Translations under genes and position numbers: made by a program
The notes under the pieces: generated by a model
Database searches by the model: none
What the model was told of the DNA's origin: nothing
The model's input: only the letters and a program-made list of their open reading frames with translations
Source: an uncultured virus (IMG/VR IMGVR_UViG_3300001460_000018)
Lineage: Duplodnaviria > Heunggongvirae > Uroviricota > Caudoviricetes
Strand: one strand, 5' to 3'
IMG/VR virus record: IMGVR_UViG_3300001460_000018
Location: 56,226 to 76,225 of that record
DNA: 20,000 nt
Shown: positions 1,254-20,000 of the stretch, one piece after another
How positions within the stretch are numbered: the first letter of the stretch is position 1
How the letters are laid out: each line of letters begins with the position of its first letter

Positions 1254-1710
1254 TTATGATTTTTGGAAATCATATAACAGTGAAAAGAATCTTAAAAAAG
1301 GTCTTGCTATATTTTTTGAGTCAGAATCGAAAGGTTTACAAAAACTATTTTTAAAGAATTTTAGTTATCCAGCTAATATGGTTGAAGACCCTGTTAGATT
1401 AAACCCAGAGACTAGTCAAGTTTATTACATTATAAACTTTACAAGTAAAGAGCTATTTTTAAATGAGGCTACATTACAAGCAGCATTTTCTCAAAGTTTA
1501 TCTATATTACAAGTTCAATTACCTATTGGCGTAACTGAGTATATGGTTCCTGAAATTGAAGGTAGGATAGATGAGAGCTATAGTATCTTAATTACATTAA
1601 CTCCGTCATATGAACATTTAGGATATGGAAATATTTTTAAAGCGCTTGTTAAACCATTCTTGATTACTCTTATATTAATCAGTATAATATCAATTATTAC
1701 ATATGTCTAA
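1225..1710 (+). CDS. Hypothetical protein with C-terminal transmembrane helix
   Basis: 161-aa ORF overlapping both neighbours; hydrophobic end PFLITLILISIISIITYV. Confidence 0.75.
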   Translation: MKKFLKYLINYDFWKSYNSEKNLKKGLAIFFESESKGLQKLFLKNFSYPANMVEDPVRLNPETSQVYYIINFTSKELFLNEATLQAAFSQSLSILQVQLPIGVTEYMVPEIEGRIDESYSILITLTPSYEHLGYGNIFKALVKPFLITLILISIISIITYV

Positions 1711-3490
1711 ACCTAAATATCAAAAGCTTACTAATGTTGAGCATGTTTTACATAGACCTGATATGTACATAGGATCACTTATAACTGAGCCTATTACAGC
1801 TTGGGTATGTAAAGAAGGTAATGTATTTGAAAAAGATGTTAAGCATAATCCAGGATTCTTAAAACTCTTTGATGAAATTATTAGCAATTCATCAGATGAA
1901 CATAAGAGAAACCCTAAACTTAATAAAATAGATGTACATATAGATGTTAGAGGAACTATTCAAATTAAAGATAATGGAGGCATACCTGTTGAAAAGCATA
2001 AAGAGTATGGTGGATATATTCCTGAAATGATTTTTAGTGAAATGTATTCAGGATCAAATTTTGATGACACTGAGGAGAGAACTACTGTGGGAACCAACGG
2101 ATTAGGATCAGTTCTTGTTAACATTTATTCTAAAAGCTTCACAATAGATACAGCAGATGGAAAGAAGCAATATACTCAAAAGTTTTCAAATAATATGGCT
2201 AAAAAAGAAAGTCCTATTATTAAACCATCTAAACTTAAAGGAACTTCTATTACATATGTGCCTGATTTAGAAAGATTTAACATGGTTTCTATTGATGATG
2301 ACCATGTTCTTCAATTAAGAAAGAGATGTTTAGATGTGGCTGCAAGTAACCCAGGATTATCCGTAAACATAATAATTAAATCAAGTACTTCTAAAGAAAG
2401 TGATAAGTTTAAGTTTAAAGACTTTACAGAATATATTAAGTTTTACCTTGATGATTTTACAGATCATTTCTTTATCAAGAATAAAAGAGCTGATATTGCT
2501 ATTGTGGCAAGTGATAGAGGTTTCTATCAAAAGTCTTTTGTTAATTCAGTTGATACTTTTGGTGGAGGTACTCACATTAGACAAATAGAGAATCAGATTA
2601 TTGATTTTACCAGGACATACATTAAAAGAAAAACTAAATATGATATTAAACCTAGTGATGTTAGAAATCATTTTGGTATTTTTGCTAACTGTCTTGTAAC
2701 TAATCCTAGATTTAAAGGCCAAACTAAAGAAGTATTAAGTACAGCTGCTAAAGATTTAGGATGTGACCTTACTATACCTGATAAGATTCTTAAACAAATA
2801 GTAAAATCTGACATCACTGCATCTATAATGGATTGGGTTGATAAGAAAAAGGCAGCTGATGAGAAGGCTGAAATGCGTAAGCTGAATAAAAAAATCGGCG
2901 GAGCTCTACCTATTAATTTATTAGATGCAAAAACTAAAAGACGTCATGAAGCTAAACTCTACATAATGGAAGGTAAGTCAGCAATGTCAGCAGTAAGAAA
3001 ATTCAGAAATCCACAAATACATGGATGTTATCCACTTAAGGGTAAATTTATGAATGTGCTTGAAAAATCTAATGTAGATGTTATTCAAAATAATGAAGTA
3101 CAAGATCTTGTAAAATCACTAGGTCTTAAGTTAGGAGAAGATGCGTTTGAAATGGTCCCATTAAGTGGTAAGAAAGTTAAGATACTTCTAAATGATGGTT
3201 ATATAACAGTTGATGAAAACGAGGAGATTTTAGTAAATGGAAAATGGGTACTTGCAAAAAAATTAGTTAATCTTAAACCAAAAGAAGTTAAAATAGATTT
3301 AATAACTAAACAGGTTAAGACGGAAGTGATTAAGACTAAAACCAAAATTATAACAGAAGAACCTGTGATTGATACATCTCAAGTAAAAGGAAAGGAAAAG
3401 GAAATTGAGAAATACTTAAAAGAAAAAGGCTTATCAGATGATAAGGTTAAAGAAGTTATTAAAAAAGGTAAAACAAAGGGATTATTTTAA
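1703..3490 (+). CDS. DNA topoisomerase II ATPase subunit (T4 gp39-like; GHKL, transducer and N-terminal half of TOPRIM)
   Basis: EHVLHRPDMYIGS, FDEIISNSSDE, DNGGIP, GTNGLGS, EGKSA and PLKGKFMNV motifs; ends before the TOPRIM DxD motif. Confidence 0.95.
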   Translation: MSKPKYQKLTNVEHVLHRPDMYIGSLITEPITAWVCKEGNVFEKDVKHNPGFLKLFDEIISNSSDEHKRNPKLNKIDVHIDVRGTIQIKDNGGIPVEKHKEYGGYIPEMIFSEMYSGSNFDDTEERTTVGTNGLGSVLVNIYSKSFTIDTADGKKQYTQKFSNNMAKKESPIIKPSKLKGTSITYVPDLERFNMVSIDDDHVLQLRKRCLDVAASNPGLSVNIIIKSSTSKESDKFKFKDFTEYIKFYLDDFTDHFFIKNKRADIAIVASDRGFYQKSFVNSVDTFGGGTHIRQIENQIIDFTRTYIKRKTKYDIKPSDVRNHFGIFANCLVTNPRFKGQTKEVLSTAAKDLGCDLTIPDKILKQIVKSDITASIMDWVDKKKAADEKAEMRKLNKKIGGALPINLLDAKTKRRHEAKLYIMEGKSAMSAVRKFRNPQIHGCYPLKGKFMNVLEKSNVDVIQNNEVQDLVKSLGLKLGEDAFEMVPLSGKKVKILLNDGYITVDENEEILVNGKWVLAKKLVNLKPKEVKIDLITKQVKTEVIKTKTKIITEEPVIDTSQVKGKEKEIEKYLKEKGLSDDKVKEVIKKGKTKGLF

Positions 3491-3970
3491 ATGGAAATAA
3501 TAAAGTTAGATTTAGATAAAGAAAATGTTAGGAGAAGGCGCCCTATAGTTAATAATATTCTTAGATACGGTACAGTTGTTATATGTACTGATGCTGATAC
3601 GGATGGTTATTCAATATGCGCACAGCTTATTAATTTTTTCTATAAGTATTGGCCTGAAATAATCCAACATAATAAATTAGAAATATGCAACACTCCTATA
3701 CTTCAAGCAAAGGATGGAAAAACCACATTGGATTTCTATTCTATTGATGAATATAAATTATGGGAATCTAAAAATTCTTCAAAATTATCAAGATATAAAG
3801 TTGCATATAAAAAAGGTCTTGCGGCATTAGATGATAAGTCATATAAAAAAATACTTCATGAACCTAATATTACAATTATTGATGAAGATTATATAACAGA
3901 GAAAACCTTAATAGATTGGTTTCATAAAGATAAAGAATTTAGAGATAAGCGAAAAGAAAAAATAAAATAA
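3491..3970 (+). CDS. DNA topoisomerase II small subunit (T4 gp60-like; C-terminal half of TOPRIM)
   Basis: ICTDADTDG (DxDxDG), YKKGLAAL and terminal RDKRKE motifs; starts immediately after the gp39-like stop. Confidence 0.93.
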   Translation: MEIIKLDLDKENVRRRRPIVNNILRYGTVVICTDADTDGYSICAQLINFFYKYWPEIIQHNKLEICNTPILQAKDGKTTLDFYSIDEYKLWESKNSSKLSRYKVAYKKGLAALDDKSYKKILHEPNITIIDEDYITEKTLIDWFHKDKEFRDKRKEKIK

Positions 3971-11434: not shown

Positions 11435-11734
11435 ATGAAAAGCATTTACATAATATATAATGAAGAGCGTGATAGGTTTAAGATAGGATTTTCAAAAAAT
11501 CCGTTAAAGAGATTAAAGGCTTTACAGACTGGTAATGATGATGTTATTAAATTATATTATGAAAGAGAAGTAAAGCACTATTCAAAAATAGAAGCATATC
11601 TTAAAAGATACTATAAAGAGTACAAAATACAAGGAGAGTGGTTTGAGTGTCCTTTAAGTTTTTCAGCTCTTGATGACATGATTACATCAGCAGATAGACG
11701 TTTTGAATCTTTAATAGATAATCCTTTCTTTTAA
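11435..11734 (+). CDS. GIY-YIG family protein (T5orf172/MUG113-like)
   Basis: IYII...FKIGFSKNPLKRLKALQTGN...IEAYL...GEWF. Confidence 0.8.
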   Translation: MKSIYIIYNEERDRFKIGFSKNPLKRLKALQTGNDDVIKLYYEREVKHYSKIEAYLKRYYKEYKIQGEWFECPLSFSALDDMITSADRRFESLIDNPFF

Positions 11735-11787: not shown

Positions 11788-12390
11788 ATGACAACTTTAA
11801 ATAGGCTCGCCATCATTTTCATGGCTTCAATAATACTATCAAACTTAACAATTCCTAAAAGAATAATAACTGATATTGAACCTGGTGTATTTTATAAAGA
11901 TAGCATATCTTTAAATAAAACAGATTTTATTAAGTTAAAAAAACAAAAGACTTTTAAGGAGTTTCTTGATAAATTATCTTTTAGAGAATCTAGCAGAAAC
12001 TGGAAAGTAATAAACAGGTTTGGATATGCTGGCAAATATCAAATGGGAAAGGCTGCTCTAACTGATCTTAACTACACTCTTAACATTGATTCATTCAGAA
12101 TTAATCCTAATACATTTCCTGAACATGTACAAGACTCTCTGGTTGTTGAGTTGTTTAAATTAAATAGAAAAAGAATTAAAACATATATCAAAAAATATGT
12201 AGGGAAAGTTATAAATGGGGTATATGTTACTGAAAGTGGAATACTTGCAGCAGCCCATTTAGTAGGCGGAGGTAACGTACGAAAATGGCTTAAAAGCAAT
12301 GGAAAGAAATGTCCTACTGATGGCAACGGAACTAGCATAGAAGAATATTTAATATTATTTTCAAATTATAAAATAAGCATACACTCTTAA
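11788..12390 (+). CDS. Lysozyme-fold peptidoglycan hydrolase / lytic transglycosylase with N-terminal signal anchor
   Basis: Catalytic-type FRESS, GYAGKYQMG and SGILAAAHLVG motifs; hydrophobic LAIIFMASIIL N-terminus. Confidence 0.7.
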   Translation: MTTLNRLAIIFMASIILSNLTIPKRIITDIEPGVFYKDSISLNKTDFIKLKKQKTFKEFLDKLSFRESSRNWKVINRFGYAGKYQMGKAALTDLNYTLNIDSFRINPNTFPEHVQDSLVVELFKLNRKRIKTYIKKYVGKVINGVYVTESGILAAAHLVGGGNVRKWLKSNGKKCPTDGNGTSIEEYLILFSNYKISIHS

Positions 12391-17674: not shown

Positions 17675-18276
17675 ACTCCCTTTGGTTTTCCTAATAATAT
17701 TTTAGTATGATTTCCACCAGCAATCTTTCTGCTGTACCAACCATCTCCAGGTGTTTTACCATCAGGATGTTTACCATGCCATGTAATATCTTTCTTAAGA
17801 ACTTTCTTAACAGCTTCTTCACTAGTGACCGCAGGTACTTTATATTTACCTAGCATAATTTCCGCAATCTTTCCAGATACTTCATTATAGTAACCAGGCA
17901 TTGAGAGTGTTTTTGCTTTACTGTTTAGGTATGTTCTTTTACTATCCTTTTCACCATCATGGCCTACTCCAGTATACTTAATACCAAACTTACCTTCTTT
18001 ACCAAAAACTATAACATCGGCATCATTTGTTCCATGTAAGTCAATTACTTCCCAAAATTCTATTGAGCTATCGCTAAATACATCATCAGCTGTTGTAAAT
18101 TTAACATGACCTCCGATAGGTGCATATGCAGTTTGTATAAGATCTATAAATTCTTTACTAAGTTCTTCTTTTTCTGTGTCAGATAATTTCTTTGGATCAA
18201 ACTTAACCCACTTATCTCTTTTGGTTTTTAATATGTCACCGCTTGACTCTTTTAGAAAATAATTAAGACTTTTCAT
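17671..18276 (-). CDS. Hypothetical putative internal head protein
   Basis: 201 aa, starts MKSLNYFLKES; late motif AAATAAATA at 18297-18305. Confidence 0.75.
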   Translation of the reverse strand: MKSLNYFLKESSGDILKTKRDKWVKFDPKKLSDTEKEELSKEFIDLIQTAYAPIGGHVKFTTADDVFSDSSIEFWEVIDLHGTNDADVIVFGKEGKFGIKYTGVGHDGEKDSKRTYLNSKAKTLSMPGYYNEVSGKIAEIMLGKYKVPAVTSEEAVKKVLKKDITWHGKHPDGKTPGDGWYSRKIAGGNHTKILLGKPKGV

Positions 18277-18338
18277 ATTTTTATATATTCTTTATATATT
18301 TATTTCAGGTTGTGAAAACTATTGTATATAATTGTTAA

Positions 18339-18599
18339 ATGGAATCTAAAAATATAAAGGTATTAAAAACAGCATTTCATTATGGAATAACTTATGCTAA
18401 AAGCGATAAGATGGCTGTTAAAATGCTAAAGCTAAAAAATAAACTGTTAAAGAAAATGAAAAAGAAGAACAGCCGAATTGTTTTAGACAATGACGTTATA
18501 ATTAAAATGATTAAAAATAGTAAATCAGAAAAAGATTTAGGAAATAAACTAAATAAGTATTATAAGTACCTTAAGCAAAATAAAAATGAAAAGAATTGA
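18339..18599 (+). CDS. Hypothetical Lys-rich protein
   Basis: 86-aa ORF overlapping the next gene. Confidence 0.6.
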   Translation: MESKNIKVLKTAFHYGITYAKSDKMAVKMLKLKNKLLKKMKKKNSRIVLDNDVIIKMIKNSKSEKDLGNKLNKYYKYLKQNKNEKN

Positions 18600-18969
18600 T
18601 GATAGCATAAACGACCATATGTTTTTTAGACATAGTGATGGTGAAATTGAAATCGGAATTCACCCTGTCATGTTTGGCAATAGAATAAGAGTTGGGTTTG
18701 TTGGTTCATGGGCATATGAACTAGATTATTGTGCAGGAGCAATCCAAGAAGATATTGAAGAAGTTTACTCAATGACTCTTCATATTTTAAAAAACCAAAA
18801 GGTTAGAGATTTTAGAGTATTTCCATCATTTGAAAGAAAACCAATTCTTAATGACCCAAGTTGTATCAATAAGCTAAGAGAAATGTCAATAGGAATGGAA
18901 AAGATTAGCATACCGCCTATTCAGATATACAGAAATATTAGTTTAAGTAAAGTATTTAAAGACTCTTAA
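18586..18969 (+). CDS. Hypothetical protein
   Basis: 127-aa ORF. Confidence 0.75.
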   Translation: MKRIDDSINDHMFFRHSDGEIEIGIHPVMFGNRIRVGFVGSWAYELDYCAGAIQEDIEEVYSMTLHILKNQKVRDFRVFPSFERKPILNDPSCINKLREMSIGMEKISIPPIQIYRNISLSKVFKDS

Positions 18970-19113
18970 ATGAACTACCCTATAAAAGGAACTCTTAATG
19001 ACTTGGCTGGTGTTGTGCCAGCAGAAGTAATTAGTATGATGGTATCCCAAAAACGAAGAAGCAGTTACATATTTACAATCGATGCACAAAATGGATTTTT
19101 ATTAGTATGGTAA
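18970..19113 (+). CDS. Small hypothetical protein (47 aa)
   Basis: Not in the track; ATG directly after the previous TAA: MNYPIKGTLNDLAGVVPAEVISMMVSQKRRSSYIFTIDAQNGFLLVW. Confidence 0.55.
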   Translation: MNYPIKGTLNDLAGVVPAEVISMMVSQKRRSSYIFTIDAQNGFLLVW

Positions 19114-19128
19114 GTTACAATAAAAGAT

Positions 19129-19368
19129 ATGAAAAAAATACAATATTTTAAAGCTCAAAATAATAGCAATAGATACCGAAAAGGGCAAAAAGTTTGGATA
19201 AGACTAAATTGCGCTAATCATTTAATAACCTATCATAAATGGCGTGGAAGTGGCAGGCATGTAGAAGGTACTATTGATAAGTTTAGCCCTTTGGTTGGTG
19301 AAATACAGACAATAGATGTAGATAGCGATTTTGCTGAAAGAATTAGTAAAATAAAAGATTATGGATAA
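19129..19368 (+). CDS. Hypothetical protein
   Basis: 79-aa ORF overlapping the next gene by 8 nt. Confidence 0.7.
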   Translation: MKKIQYFKAQNNSNRYRKGQKVWIRLNCANHLITYHKWRGSGRHVEGTIDKFSPLVGEIQTIDVDSDFAERISKIKDYG

Positions 19369-19651
19369 ATTAAAAGAACTATTAAGTAAATGTAAAGCAA
19401 GTGTTACAATATCTGTAAACCGACATAGAGATTATCACCAAAGTGTTAAAGATTACATTGAAGAACAAGAATTGATGGATAAAGGTTTGATTGATGAAAT
19501 TGGCAGTGAAGTATATGAAGAAATGAAAAAGACTAATACCATTATTGAAATACAAGCTTACCCGGATACACCAGTAGGAAGTTATAGAGTATTTCATTAT
19601 GACATTGATAAAGCGGTAGATATAATGCTAAGTTGTGTTAATGGTGGGTAA
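19361..19651 (+). CDS. Hypothetical protein ending in the TAAC of an attC-like site
   Basis: 96-aa ORF; its stop TAA is part of GGGTAAC. Confidence 0.75.
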   Translation: MDKLKELLSKCKASVTISVNRHRDYHQSVKDYIEEQELMDKGLIDEIGSEVYEEMKKTNTIIEIQAYPDTPVGSYRVFHYDIDKAVDIMLSCVNGG

Positions 19652-19769
19652 CGTTAAATCTATAATGCGTGACCTAAGTGCAACCTAAATAATAAATTTA
19701 CCTTAATAAAGAATATGGAAAACGAAAAGAACAATAACTCTCAGTCATGCAATATAGATGCTGTTATGA
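19646..19769. mobile_element. attC-like recombination hairpin 1
   Basis: TAAC-gttaa-ATCTATAATGCGTGAC ... GTCATGCAATATAGAT-gct-GTTA imperfect inverted repeat, 124 bp. Confidence 0.7.
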
Positions 19770-19903
19770 GTCGCTACAAAGCATTAAAAAATGAATATAA
19801 TGAATGTAAGGTTGGATATATGAAGACTAGCAGCCCTATTTATATGGCTAGAATGAGGGAGATTGAAGTAATTTTTGACTTCTTTAATGGTAATGACTCA
19901 TAA
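19715..19903 (+). CDS. Cassette-borne hypothetical protein
   Basis: 62 aa; starts inside hairpin 1 and stops in the TAAC of hairpin 2; alternative start at 19766. Confidence 0.65.
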   Translation: MENEKNNNSQSCNIDAVMSRYKALKNEYNECKVGYMKTSSPIYMARMREIEVIFDFFNGNDS

Positions 19904-19991
19904 CGGTTTGGCTAAGGTTAGTTGCCATAAATACTAACTATCAAATTATAACAAGACCTTGCAAGGCAATTAACTTTAGCTGTTGTTAGGC
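19898..19991. mobile_element. attC-like recombination hairpin 2
   Basis: TAAC-ggtttg-GCTAAGGTTAGTTGCC ... GGCAATTAACTTTAGC-tgtt-GTTAGGC, 94 bp, ending in a canonical GTTRRRY. Confidence 0.72.
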
Positions 19992-20000
19992 ACTTTTAAA

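What the first reader, a model, noticed from the sequence alone, without database searches (positions are those of the whole stretch)
19643..20000. Integron-like gene-cassette array (attC-type sites) in a large phage genome
Seen: two tandem imperfect inverted repeats (124 and 94 bp), each bounded by TAAC...GTTA, with unrelated internal sequences. The preceding ORF stops at the TAA of each TAAC. The right end of site 1 (GTTATGAGTC, 19763-19772) is the exact reverse complement of the left end of site 2 (GACTCATAAC, 19895-19904), not of its own left end (GGTGGGTAAC). Known: this offset complementarity is the hallmark of excisable integron cassettes, whose core sites pair in the circular form. Inference: the phage carries a site-specific gene-shuffling array of small accessory genes that begins here and continues past the window. 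No integrase is visible, so it may be elsewhere in the genome or supplied by the host.
Basis: partly seen in the sequence, partly recalled or inferred. Interest (0 to 1): 0.85.

Follow-up and report, generated by a model that had tools for sequence, protein, structure and literature searches.

The report
Integron-like gene cassettes in a phage
The end of this large marine phage contig is the start of a short row of swappable mini-genes separated by folding DNA hairpins of the same family that separates gene cassettes in the chromosomes of Bacteroidota bacteria, so phage and host probably trade genes through one shared recombination system.

Summary
Both TAAC...GTTA inverted repeats exist as described, and GTTATGAGTC (19763-19772) is the exact reverse complement of GACTCATAAC (19895-19904). 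Inside the window alone the evidence is borderline: the folds are no more stable than shuffles, and such repeats occur at chance frequency in the contig. Comparison settles it.

- **The array continues.** A metagenome contig identical but for one base reads past the window end. It shows three more sites and three more cassettes, all with offset-complementary ends.
- **The site family.** Site 2 and the next site match a covariance model built from 119 independent sites of a roughly 60-bp hairpin family, (T)AAC-spacer-stem-CGTTTTAATG-stem-TGTTA.
- **Where the family occurs.** It is widespread in Bacteroidota phages and chromosomes. In chromosomes it forms arrays of up to about 110 kb. Four arrays start with a co-oriented Xer/IntI-like tyrosine recombinase, the published rAID-1 layout.
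- **Prior description.** One member was published as the putative attC site P12002L_attC1 and failed to recombine with IntI1.
- **Gene orientation.** Phage genes lie on the model strand; bacterial genes lie on the opposite strand.
- **No phage recombinase.** No tyrosine recombinase was found in the phage records searched.

Recombination itself is inferred, not shown. This scan has met the family before on other DNA.

The parts
19361..19651 (+). 96-aa gene of unknown function. It is the only stretch shared with the unrelated 37.8-kb siphovirus-like record G001 and with G002 (86-87% DNA identity). In G001 it is a cassette bracketed by GTTACCCACC...GGTGGGTAAC. In the window its 5' box is missing, because the 79-aa ORF (19129-19368) overlaps its start.
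19643..19652 (+). Left outer box of site 1, GGTGGGTAAC. The TAA is the stop codon of the 96-aa gene. Contigs of the source sample branch directly after position 19652.
   Evidence: left end aligns to the model consensus AUUnnnnnUAACGUU
19649..19766 (+). Site 1: TAAC, GTTAA, a 16-nt arm, a 70-nt loop, a 16-nt arm, GCT, GTTA. It is a divergent, large-loop member of the family. The loop holds the ribosome-binding region and start codon of the next ORF.
   Evidence: the large-loop architecture recurs in G001 and in L414 site 4
19715..19903 (+). 62-aa ORF. It starts in the loop of site 1, runs through the right arm and GTTA, and ends at the TAA of the next TAAC. A full-length homologue exists (P0002, 81% identity, 62 aa).
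19763..19904 (+). 142-bp unit bracketed by GTTATGAGTC and GACTCATAAC, a perfect 10-nt offset complementarity.
   Evidence: (I4)
19893..19996 (+). Site 2 with its boxes: GACTCATAAC, GGTTTG, a 16-nt arm, a 38-nt loop, a 16-nt arm, TGTT, GTTAGGCAC. It matches covariance model R1 at 29.6 bits.
   Evidence: E 0.0013 over 198,612 bases; E 4.6e-5 in L414
19985..20000 (+). GTTAGGCACTTTTAAA: the right outer box of site 2 and the first letters of the next cassette. In L414 that cassette encodes a 46-aa ORF and ends in GTACCTAAT.

Best explanation
**What it is.** The last 360 bases of the window are the first two sites of a five-site, co-oriented array of very small gene cassettes (ORFs of 46-96 aa) in a T4-like phage of roughly 250-280 kb.

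**The site.** Each site is a structure-specific recombination site of a Bacteroidota-wide family. Its parts, in order:
- a cassette-specific box of about 6 nt,
- a conserved (T)AAC,
- an unpaired spacer of 4-7 nt,
- an imperfect hairpin with a loop that varies in length,
- a conserved (T)GTTA,
- the box of the next cassette.

**Why the boxes pair in offset fashion.** The box after a GTTA is complementary to the box before the next TAAC. This is what a circular excised cassette would produce, with its two ends pairing to complete the outer stem of its own site. That is the logic of integron attC sites.

**Inferred mechanism.** A host-encoded Xer/IntI-like tyrosine recombinase cuts the folded single strand at the AAC. 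This is the enzyme found at the head of chromosomal arrays that carry the same sites. It would excise, insert and reorder cassettes, moving genes between phages and probably between phage and host arrays.

**The phage unit.** In phages the folding (model) strand is the coding strand. The mobile unit would therefore be hairpin, then 5' leader, then ORF, ending in its own TAA stop.

**Shown:** the anatomy; family membership; offset and compensatory complementarity; breakpoints at TAAC; one cassette shared between unrelated phages; continuation of the array.

**Inferred:** recombination itself; the cleavage point; the enzyme; the single-stranded substrate.
For: **1. The array continues beyond the window.**
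- L414 equals window 18837-20000 but for 1 base and adds sites 3-5.
- Site 3 scores 50.1 bits (E 1.5e-9).
- The box pairs are 10/10, 7/9, 9/9 and 8/9 complementary.

**2. The sites belong to a large family.**
- 119 sites from viral contigs align with 13 predicted pairs. Ten of these pairs show changes on both sides in tens of sequences.
- Model R1 hits window site 2.
- R1 gives 9 hits at E<0.01 in G001 and 7 in Polaribacter phage P12002L.
- It gives 64 hits in 40 Bacteroidota genome loci, but none in the Helicobacter, Mannheimia, Colwellia or Bacillota loci that matched the search pattern.

**3. Offset complementarity holds at scale.**
- G001 has 10 perfect GTTA+6...6+TAAC brackets against 0.73 in shuffles.
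- Among viral sites, 16 of 74 have a downstream partner (shuffled control 1.4) and 20 of 62 an upstream partner (control 1.2).
- In bacterial arrays, 15 of 30 adjacent site pairs are complementary at 5 or more of 6 positions. Random pairs reach this 2.4% of the time.

**4. The boxes change in a compensatory way.** Two homologous methyltransferase cassettes (127 of 215 aa identical) carry GTTA-GGCAC...GTGCC-TAAC in one phage and GTTA-CCAAC...GTTGG-TAAT in the other.

**5. Cassettes move as units, with breakpoints at the core.**
- The 96-aa gene is the only similarity between the T4-like contig and the siphovirus-like G001.
- The G000-G002 and G001-G002 homologies end exactly at TAAC.
- In the probable source run, depth rises from 23.6 to 233 at 19624-19667, and other sequences follow directly after 19652.
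- In another run, site 2 is preceded by a different sequence up to 19900.

**6. A recombinase is linked to the same sites in bacteria.**
- In Flavobacteriaceae chromosomes the sites form same-strand clusters.
- Four clusters have a co-directional tyrosine recombinase at the 5' end.
- That enzyme scores 229 bits on NF040815 and 199 bits on the integron-integrase model TIGR02249, below its cut-off of 265.

**7. A DNA-level, strand-specific role fits the gene orientation.**
- In viral loci, genes lie on the model strand at 54 of 79 sites and on the opposite strand at 0.
- In bacterial loci, genes lie on the opposite strand at 50 of 82 sites and on the model strand at 8.
- Extra bases in the stem occur on the 3' arm in 22 of 119 sites and on the 5' arm in 1 of 119.
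- G.T pairs number 30 on the model strand against 15 on the other strand.
Against: - **No recombination product was seen.** There were no joints in the laid contigs, which were contigs only and not raw reads.
- **No tyrosine recombinase was found in the phage records.** This covers G000, G001-G006 and P12002L. Among them are two records classed as complete that lack arrays, the complete P12002L genome, and G001 with terminal repeats.
- **The one tested family member failed.** P12002L_attC1 did not recombine with IntI1 (PMC9892861, section 3.4 and supplement).
- **Hairpins do not stay with one neighbour.**
  - The same hairpin sequence occurs with many different flanking boxes on both sides.
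  - G001 and G002 have different hairpins upstream of the same 96-aa gene.
  - A strict integron would keep each hairpin with one cassette. Homologous recombination between similar hairpins could do part of the shuffling.
- **The two window sites are atypical.**
  - Their loops are 70 and 38 nt, and they lack the CGTTTTAATG loop.
  - Site 1 is not found by R1 as a whole.
  - Their folds are not more stable than shuffles.
- **The rest of this phage has no such sites.** R1 gave no hit at E<=0.01 in the 171.8-kb record G006. In the rest of G000 it gave only two weak matches of about 12.5 bits (E>7).
- **The assembly join is not proven.** The link of the last 350 bases to the T4-like contig crosses a roughly 36-nt stretch shared with other genomes. 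The similar depths on either side (23.6 and 21.3) support the link but do not prove it.
Confidence: 0.65

Rival explanations
1. **Recombination linkers without a dedicated recombinase.** The conserved AAC-hairpin-GTTA modules are short shared sequences. The phage's own general recombination machinery exchanges neighbouring genes at these modules, as proposed for the promoter-stem-loop cassettes (PeSLs) of T4-type phages. The machinery would be UvsX and gp46/47 in this phage, or the Rad52-like protein in G001.
For: - Identical hairpins occur with many different flanking boxes on both sides.
- G001 and G002 have different hairpins upstream of the same gene.
- Both phage types encode general recombination proteins and no tyrosine recombinase.
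- PeSL-mediated shuffling and mini-circles in T4-type phages are recalled from Arbiol et al. 2010, which I did not read here.
Against: - It does not explain why the cassette-specific boxes are complementary in offset fashion, nor why they change in a compensatory way.
- The window's sites share only 4-5 conserved letters at each end, which is too little for homologous exchange.
- The same sites sit in chromosomal arrays headed by a tyrosine recombinase.
- No sigma-70-type promoter forms part of the sites.
Confidence: 0.13
2. **An RNA-level element.** The hairpins and the box pairing act in the polycistronic mRNA. They would enclose each small ORF in a long-range stem for processing, stability, termination or translational coupling at the TAA stop.
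For: - In phages the sites are always on the coding strand, and TAAC supplies the stop codon. TAAC is present at 72 of 79 viral sites.
- The 7th box position is systematically T opposite G, which is a good pair in RNA.
- Covariation of stems and boxes is what a structured RNA would also show.
Against: - In bacterial chromosomes the same family, with the same strand-specific loop CGTTTTAATG, lies on the non-coding strand at 50 of 82 sites. The mRNA there carries the complement.
- No Rfam family matches.
- No T-run follows the hairpin, and the terminator scan finds none here.
- The observed box mismatches are A.G, G.A, G.G and C.A, not wobbles.
- An RNA element does not explain breakpoints at TAAC or the transfer of a cassette between unrelated phages.
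Confidence: 0.12
3. **Classical integron attC sites** (a CALIN), substrates of a true integron integrase IntI.
For: - The sites share the hairpin with AAC/GTT cores and the offset complementarity.
- HattCI called one family member an attC site. A neighbouring non-family site of the same phage did recombine with IntI1 (PMC9892861).
Against: - The tested family member, P12002L_attC1, gave no recombinants with IntI1 and was not found by the Infernal attC model.
- The array-associated recombinases score below the integron-integrase cut-off: 199 bits against 265 for TIGR02249, and 130 against 435 for NF011946.
- IntegronFinder 2.0 reports hardly any integrons in Bacteroidetes (PMC9024848 passages), although arrays of these sites are common there.
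- The spacer is unpaired on one arm only, and two or three extrahelical bases are not a regular feature.
Confidence: 0.05
4. **Chance inverted repeats** at the AT-rich end of a contig, or a chimeric contig end.
For: - Generic inverted repeats of this quality are at chance frequency in the contig.
- The folds are not unusually stable.
- Assemblies break near here: G006 ends at window 18988.
- The unitig graph branches at 19617-19663.
Against: - An independent metagenome contig carries the same 1164 bases with 1 mismatch and continues the array.
- Site 2 and site 3 match a model built from unrelated loci.
- Four of four cassettes have complementary boxes.
- Depths on either side of the shared stretch agree, at 23.6 and 21.3.
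Confidence: 0.02

Closest known systems
rAID-1 (recombinase-associated acquired interbacterial defence) gene clusters of Bacteroidales. Ross et al. 2019, preprint 10.1101/471110 (passages read); 2025 preprint 10.1101/2025.05.03.651265 (passages read).
   Same: [quoted passage not shown]
- Flavobacteriaceae arrays that carry the R1 sites have this layout and carry SUKH/SMI1-KNR4, SUFU and DUF695/RraB-type cargo.
- The window's sites belong to the same site family.
   Different: - The window is a phage, not a chromosome. It has no recombinase, its genes lie on the other strand relative to the site, and its cargo is 46-96-aa proteins of unknown function.
- The passages I read do not describe hairpins, offset complementarity or phage copies. 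Neither 'hairpin' nor 'attC' occurs in the 2025 text.
- I did not test that the Bacteroides fragilis rAID-1 motif is the R1 family.
Clusters of attC sites lacking an integrase (CALINs) in virulent phages. Qi et al. 2023, PMC9892861 (abstract, sections 2.1 and 3.4, legends and supplementary primer table read).
   Same: - These are attC-like sites between co-oriented phage genes, with no integrase in the phage.
- Their P12002L_attC1 is a canonical member of the family found here. R1 scores it at 67.6 bits, and the published primer sequence equals L158 30000-30064 on the minus strand.
- In that phage a methyltransferase cassette runs from GTTAGGCAC to GTGCCTAAC.
   Different: - The paper treats the sites as integron attC sites.
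- The family member was found by HattCI only and was the one site of six that IntI1 did not recombine.
- In the sections I read, the paper does not describe the family, its Bacteroidota-wide spread, its link to Xer-like recombinase arrays or the mirrored gene orientation.
Integron attC sites and cassette arrays. Features taken from Nivina et al. 2016, PMC5027507 (passages read).
   Same: - Both are imperfect hairpins of about 60 bp or more, with conserved AAC and GTT at the outer ends.
- Both have an unpaired spacer between the outer and inner stems, and a loop of variable length.
- In both, the outer box of one site is complementary to that of the next.
- Sites within one array or clade are homogeneous, as in sedentary chromosomal integrons.
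   Different: - The recombinase is not IntI.
- The spacer is unpaired on the 5' arm only: 4-7 nt, against 0-3 nt on the 3' arm.
- There is at most one extra base, in 22 of 119 sites.
- The cassette-specific box is 6 nt and is followed by a conserved T.G.
- The loop sequence CGTTTTAATG is conserved.
- In phages the ORFs lie on the strand that carries the 5' AAC.
PeSL (promoter-early stem-loop) cassettes of T4-type phages.
   Same: Small non-essential genes in a hyperplastic region of a T4-like genome are separated by stem-loop modules, which are proposed to shuffle genes and to give mini-circles.
   Different: - PeSLs are homologous repeats with a strong sigma-70 promoter and a terminator, and they are exchanged by homologous recombination.
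- Here the hairpins differ in sequence and have no promoter or terminator signature.
- Here the cassette ends carry specific complementary boxes.

Membership tests
   - Site 2 scores 29.6 bits, with E 0.0013 over 198,612 bases and E 4.6e-5 in L414.
- Site 3, just past the window, scores 50.1 bits.
- Site 1 aligns only at its two ends: 9.5 bits for the left end.
   The four box pairs in window plus L414 are 10/10, 7/9, 9/9 and 8/9 complementary. The same rule holds in G001, in viral loci and in bacterial arrays.
   Window sites 1 and 2 have loops of 70 and 38 nt without this motif. Site 3 in L414 has it. Large-loop variants also occur in G001.
Classical integron attC site / CALIN | Imperfect hairpin with conserved 5'-AAC-3' and 5'-GTT-3' at the outer ends (PMC5027507) | tested here: met
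   (AAC and the last TTA of the right-hand core are invariant in the 119 sites; the G before them is in at least 90%)
Classical integron attC site / CALIN | Unpaired central spacer of 5-6 nt on each arm, and two or three extrahelical bases on one arm (PMC5027507) | tested here: not met
   - The spacer is 4-7 nt on the 5' arm only.
- An extra base occurs in 22 of 119 sites on the 3' arm and in 1 of 119 on the 5' arm.
- The window sites have spacers of 5/3 and 6/4 nt and mismatches rather than bulges.
Classical integron attC site / CALIN | Detection by the attC covariance model of IntegronFinder | not testable with these tools
   The model is not available here. According to PMC9892861, the family member P12002L_attC1 was predicted by HattCI only, not by HattCI plus Infernal.
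Classical integron attC site / CALIN | Recombination by an integron integrase (IntI) | not testable with these tools
   - In the literature, P12002L_attC1 gave no recombinants with IntI1.
- No PF00589 protein was found in G000, G001-G006 or P12002L.
- The array-linked bacterial recombinases score below the IntI cut-offs.
rAID-1-type recombinase-associated array | XerD-like tyrosine recombinase gene at the 5' end of the array | tested here: not met
   - None is present in the window, in G000 or in G006.
- One is present at the 5' end of four bacterial arrays with the same sites.
rAID-1-type recombinase-associated array | Two or more co-oriented short genes separated by conserved intergenic motifs | tested here: met
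   Five co-oriented ORFs of 46-96 aa are separated by five sites.
rAID-1-type recombinase-associated array | Cargo of orphan immunity genes; GC content lower than the surroundings | tested here: not met
   - The window and L414 cassette proteins have no Pfam or PHROG family.
- GC is 0.31 in the array against 0.31 and 0.33 in the flanks.
PeSL cassettes of T4-type phages (definition recalled) | Repeated homologous module with a strong sigma-70 promoter and a terminator stem-loop | tested here: not met
   The hairpin sequences of sites 1 and 2 are unrelated. The promoter and terminator scan places none in the sites.

The most novel reading that the evidence does not exclude
Bacteroidota phages, from 38-kb siphoviruses to T4-like jumbo phages, and their hosts share one structure-specific cassette-exchange system run by the host's Xer-like recombinase. 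Phages keep their cassettes in mirror orientation, so that the folding, recombining strand is the coding strand. A phage cassette is then a self-contained unit of hairpin, leader and ORF ending in its own stop codon. This would let virulent phages without any recombinase of their own swap small accessory genes, such as DNA methyltransferases, during infection. Phages and hosts would draw on a common gene market.
Probability: 0.35. Interest if true: 0.85.

Novelty: new variant of a known kind. Interest (0 to 1): 0.62.

Why it matters
**If the sites are active,** virulent phages of marine Bacteroidota have a site-specific way to gain, lose and reorder small genes inside an otherwise conserved genome, using an enzyme they do not encode.

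**What this would explain.**
- The hypervariable 'small ORF' regions of such phages, and the assembly breaks at them.
- How one gene can pass between a siphovirus-like and a T4-like phage.

**Two literatures it would link.** So far these are separate:
- attC-like clusters in phages, interpreted as integron parts;
- the recombinase-associated arrays of Bacteroidales, whose mechanism is undescribed in the passages I read.

**Practical use.** The covariance model gives a way to find such arrays, which the integron tools largely miss in this phylum according to the passages read.

**A testable feature.** The mirrored gene orientation in phages (0 of 79 viral sites against 50 of 82 bacterial sites have genes on the opposite strand) is an unexplained regularity. 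It bears on how strand choice works in structure-specific recombination.

Tried and rejected
- **Circular contig.** I treated the contig as circular. It has no terminal overlap, and no further TAAC...GTTA site lies at its start. G000 is a fragment, estimated 27% complete, so this says nothing.
- **First pattern scan of viral contigs.** Only 1 of the 99 matches examined was a hairpin (L113, a copy of the G001 site); the rest were chance.
- **Second pattern scan.** The pattern TAACANCTNGCTATACGGAATA found only G001 itself.
- **DNA search of the phage collection.** Window 18300-20000 gave no match.
- **62-aa protein in viral contigs.** No relative was found. The metagenome scan then found L414.
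- **Relatives of the G001 terminase and phage P12002L.** The simple bracket scan found 0-1 perfect brackets per locus in 21 loci, at or near the shuffle expectation. The covariance model later did find sites in P12002L, so the bracket scan was too strict for sites whose cores are not exactly GTTA/TAAC.
- **Distant homologues of the 96-aa gene** (L006-L009, 35-48% identity). These have tightly packed genes and no sites.
- **Rfam.** No family reached its gathering score in the window. In nine site-bearing loci there were only four weak microRNA-model matches, far below their gathering scores.
- **R1 with filters off** on window 18000-20000. This broke the large-loop sites into end pieces of 14.1, 9.5 and 7.8 bits. 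I rely on the default-filter score.
- **Laid contigs.** No joints or indels were seen. All four runs were contigs, which cannot show rare excision products. The parts of the stretch without cover in X2-X4 are not evidence.
- **Which hairpin travels with which ORF.** I could not settle this, because the evidence conflicts.
  - Breakpoints at TAAC and ORFs that start in upstream loops favour 'hairpin plus downstream ORF'.
  - The different hairpins upstream of the 96-aa gene in G001 and G002 argue against a strict link.
- **Literature searches for this family in phages or marine Flavobacteriia.** These were. I found only the papers cited. The figures of the rAID preprint, which show its motif logos, are not held, and bioRxiv supplements are closed. 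They may show the same motif.
Full report
**Setting**

The window is the last 20 kb of a single 76,225-bp virus record (G000:C1:56226-76225, 29% G+C). Its genes are T4-like: endonuclease VII, UvsX, gp41-type helicase, gp46/47, portal, prohead protease, major head protein, topoisomerase II, DNA ligase, thymidylate synthase, dCMP deaminase and a late sigma factor.

The record is classed as linear and 27% complete. A second record, G006 (171,834 bp, 67% complete), is 100% identical over the 2,500 bases compared. It ends at window position 18988. The phage is therefore large, roughly 250-280 kb by these completeness estimates. Assemblies tend to break close to the finding.

**The observation**

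- Site 1 is TAAC (19649), GTTAA, a 16-nt arm, a 70-nt loop, a 16-nt arm (14 of 16 complementary), GCT, GTTA (19766).
- Site 2 is TAAC (19901), GGTTTG, a 16-nt arm, a 38-nt loop, a 16-nt arm (14 of 16 complementary), TGTT, GTTA (19988).
- The 96-aa and 62-aa ORFs stop at the TAA of the two TAAC.
- GTTATGAGTC (19763-19772) is the exact reverse complement of GACTCATAAC (19895-19904).

Taken alone this is not compelling.

- Repeats of this quality are as frequent in the contig as in shuffles: 11 against a mean of 10.9.
- The four single-strand DNA folds have z-scores between -0.70 and 0.17.
- The framed pattern gives 2 hits against a mean of 0.27 in shuffles, but I derived that pattern from the sites themselves.
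- The right arm and GTTA of site 1 lie inside the 62-aa ORF, which begins in the loop. This ORF is conserved at full length elsewhere (P0002, 81% identity).

**Relatives show cassettes**

The 96-aa gene (19361-19651) has close relatives, at 82-83% amino-acid identity, in two viral records.

G001 is a 37.8-kb record with terminal repeats and siphovirus-type genes. These include a Rad52-like protein, VRR-NUC, terminase and portal, and the terminase is nearest to those of Riemerella and Flavobacterium phages.

- In G001 the gene is preceded by a hairpin site that ends in GTTACCCACC, the exact complement of its own end GGTGGGTAAC.
- G001 holds 10 perfect GTTA+6...6+TAAC brackets, against 0.73 in shuffles, arranged in two arrays.

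This gene is the only similarity between G001 and the T4-like contig. The homologies G000-G002 and G001-G002 stop exactly at TAAC, and the three records have different downstream neighbours.

In contigs of the probable source run, the depth rises from 23.6 to 233 over 19624-19667, and two other continuations branch off at 19652 and 19663. In another run, site 2 follows a different sequence up to 19900.

**A large site family**

Several G001 sites share the loop CGTTTTAATG. All 125 distinct matches are hairpins of 43-52 nt.

- An alignment of 119 of them gives 13 consensus pairs. Ten of these show changes on both sides in many sequences.
- The consensus is a semi-conserved AT, a 6-nt variable box, (T)AAC, G.T.. 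(unpaired), a 10-13-bp stem, the loop, the return stem, TGTTA, a 6-nt variable box, then G.
- No Rfam family matches.

The covariance model R1 gives these results:

- window site 2 at 29.6 bits;
- 9 sites in G001;
- 7 sites in Polaribacter phage P12002L;
- site 1 only by its ends.

**The array continues**

A metagenome contig, L414, equals window 18837-20000 but for one base and runs on. Its contents, in order:

- After GTTAGGCACTTTTAAA comes a 46-aa ORF that ends in ATTGTACCTAAT.
- Next is a canonical site (50.1 bits, E 1.5e-9).
- A 51-aa ORF is bracketed by GTTATAAAC and GTTTATAAC.
- A large-loop site follows, and its loop holds the start of a 76-aa ORF.
- That ORF is bracketed by GTTATGCGA and ACGCATAAC.
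- A fifth site follows, and then a convergent 302-aa gene.

In relatives, cassettes that begin GTTAGGCACTTTTA encode DNA methyltransferases and end in GTGCCTAAC. This held in 4 of the 5 loci with enough downstream sequence.

**The pairing rule is general and compensatory**

- Of the loop-type viral sites, 16 of 74 have a downstream partner box and 20 of 62 an upstream one. The shuffled controls give 1.4 and 1.2.
- In bacterial arrays, 15 of 30 adjacent site pairs are complementary at 5 or 6 of 6 positions, against 2.4% of random pairs.
- Two homologous methyltransferase cassettes (127 of 215 residues identical) have GGCAC/GTGCC in one phage and CCAAC/GTTGG in the other, within otherwise homologous flanks.

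**The bacterial side**

The genera and groups include Aquimarina, Tenacibaculum, Polaribacter, Cellulophaga, Algibacter, Cyclobacteriaceae, Saprospiraceae and Bacteroidales, with some Ignavibacteria and Cloacimonadota.

- R1 found 64 sites in 40 such loci. It found none in the four loci from other phyla.
- In whole genomes the sites form same-strand clusters. One Tenacibaculum genome has 46 hits in about seven clusters. One Aquimarina genome has 13 hits, 11 of them spread over 130-241 kb.
- 12 of 100 other Flavobacteriales genomes had a hit. This is a lower bound.
- Four arrays begin with a co-directional tyrosine recombinase. It scores 229 bits on NF040815 and 199 bits on the integron-integrase model, whose cut-off is 265.
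- Cargo includes SUKH/SMI1-KNR4, SUFU and DUF695/RraB proteins.

This is the published layout of rAID-1 clusters. I did not test the Bacteroides clusters themselves.

**Mirror orientation**

- At viral sites, the genes lie on the model strand in 54 of 79 cases, on the opposite strand in 0, and are mixed in 25.
- At bacterial sites, they lie on the model strand in 8 of 82, on the opposite strand in 50, and are mixed in 24.

Because the strand-specific loop is conserved in both settings, a common RNA function is unlikely. In integron terms (definitions from PMC5027507), the model strand carries the 5' AAC. It also carries the occasional extra base on the 3' arm, in 22 of 119 sites against 1 of 119 on the 5' arm. 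This makes it the counterpart of the attC bottom strand. Bacterial arrays then have the canonical arrangement. In phages the unit would be hairpin plus downstream ORF ending in TAA, which fits ORFs that start inside the upstream loop and breakpoints at TAAC.

**What argues against**

- No recombination product was seen (contigs only).
- No phage record searched holds a tyrosine recombinase.
- The only family member tested experimentally, P12002L_attC1, failed with IntI1.
- The same hairpin occurs with many different boxes on both sides. G001 and G002 differ upstream of the same gene. Homologous exchange between hairpins may therefore contribute to the shuffling.
- R1 finds no other site in the 171.8-kb record G006. 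In the rest of G000 it finds only two weak matches of about 12.5 bits.

**Comparison and novelty**

Published work covers two neighbouring facts:

- attC-like clusters in virulent phages, including one member of this family (PMC9892861);
- recombinase-associated arrays with integron-like intergenic motifs in Bacteroidales (10.1101/471110).

My four literature searches found no description of the following:

- the hairpin family as such;
- its offset and compensatory boxes;
- its presence in both Bacteroidota chromosomes and phages;
- the mirrored orientation.

Figures and bioRxiv supplements that I could not see may show the motif. Earlier notes of this scan describe the same family on other DNA, twice in phages. 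They agree with my reading but are not independent evidence.

**Verdict**

The array is a real, integron-like cassette array of the Bacteroidota Xer-linked type in a large T4-like phage. I put the probability at about 0.65 that the sites are substrates of a structure-specific tyrosine recombinase supplied by the host.

Noticed in passing
window 18988 (end of record G006) and 19617-19663: A second assembly of the same phage stops about 1 kb before the window end. In the probable source run the unitigs branch at the end of the 96-aa gene, where summed depth rises tenfold. Both fit a population-variable region.
   Followed up: partly
window 19599-19626: The best sigma-70-like match of the scanned 4 kb, ATGACA-16-TATAAT with 11 of 12 letters, lies inside the 3' end of the 96-aa gene, just upstream of site 1. 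If the host is a Bacteroidota, whose promoters differ, it may be meaningless.
   Followed up: no
L128 10594-10625, 12240-12271 and 14076-14107 (G001): Three cassette ends are followed not by a hairpin but by a conserved TAAC-A(A/T)CT(A/T)-GCTATACGGAATA... motif. It was found in no other viral contig by exact pattern. A 46-nt stretch at one copy (G001 12230-12275) is 85% identical to part of G002. Its role is unknown; it may be an alternative boundary or an expression signal.
   Followed up: partly
L158 (Polaribacter phage P12002L) 29150-29260 and about 37150-37290: The published attC2, which IntI1 did recombine, is the terminal site after a cassette end (GTGCCTAAC-AACGG...). It occurs twice in that phage, the second time after TTGTGGGTAAC. 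It is not a hairpin of the R1 type.
   Followed up: partly
L195 2087-2771, L202 4044-4703, L158 29238-30012 and L128 9018-9728: DNA methyltransferase genes are recurrent phage cassettes of this system, most with the GGCAC/GTGCC box. This suggests anti-restriction cargo.
   Followed up: partly
L298 3288-4542: The array-associated recombinase of this Aquimarina locus reads in two overlapping frames (118 and 343 codons). This is either a frameshift or a sequencing error. Intact versions have 377-397 aa (L411, L413).
   Followed up: no
L005 4739-4767 (G001): A tandem repeat GATTACAAAA x3 lies at the start of a small cassette ORF, which then continues in another frame. It may be a slippage-prone switch.
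   Followed up: no
window 1703-3967 and 11435-11731: The topoisomerase II large subunit is split into two adjacent ORFs of 595 and 159 aa. A 99-aa ORF resembles a homing-endonuclease fragment.
   Followed up: no
L414 1935-2843, minus strand: The array ends against a convergent 302-aa gene with no Pfam family. By eye, its C-terminal stretch resembles a Bacteroidota secretion sorting tail, but Pfam does not confirm this.
   Followed up: partly
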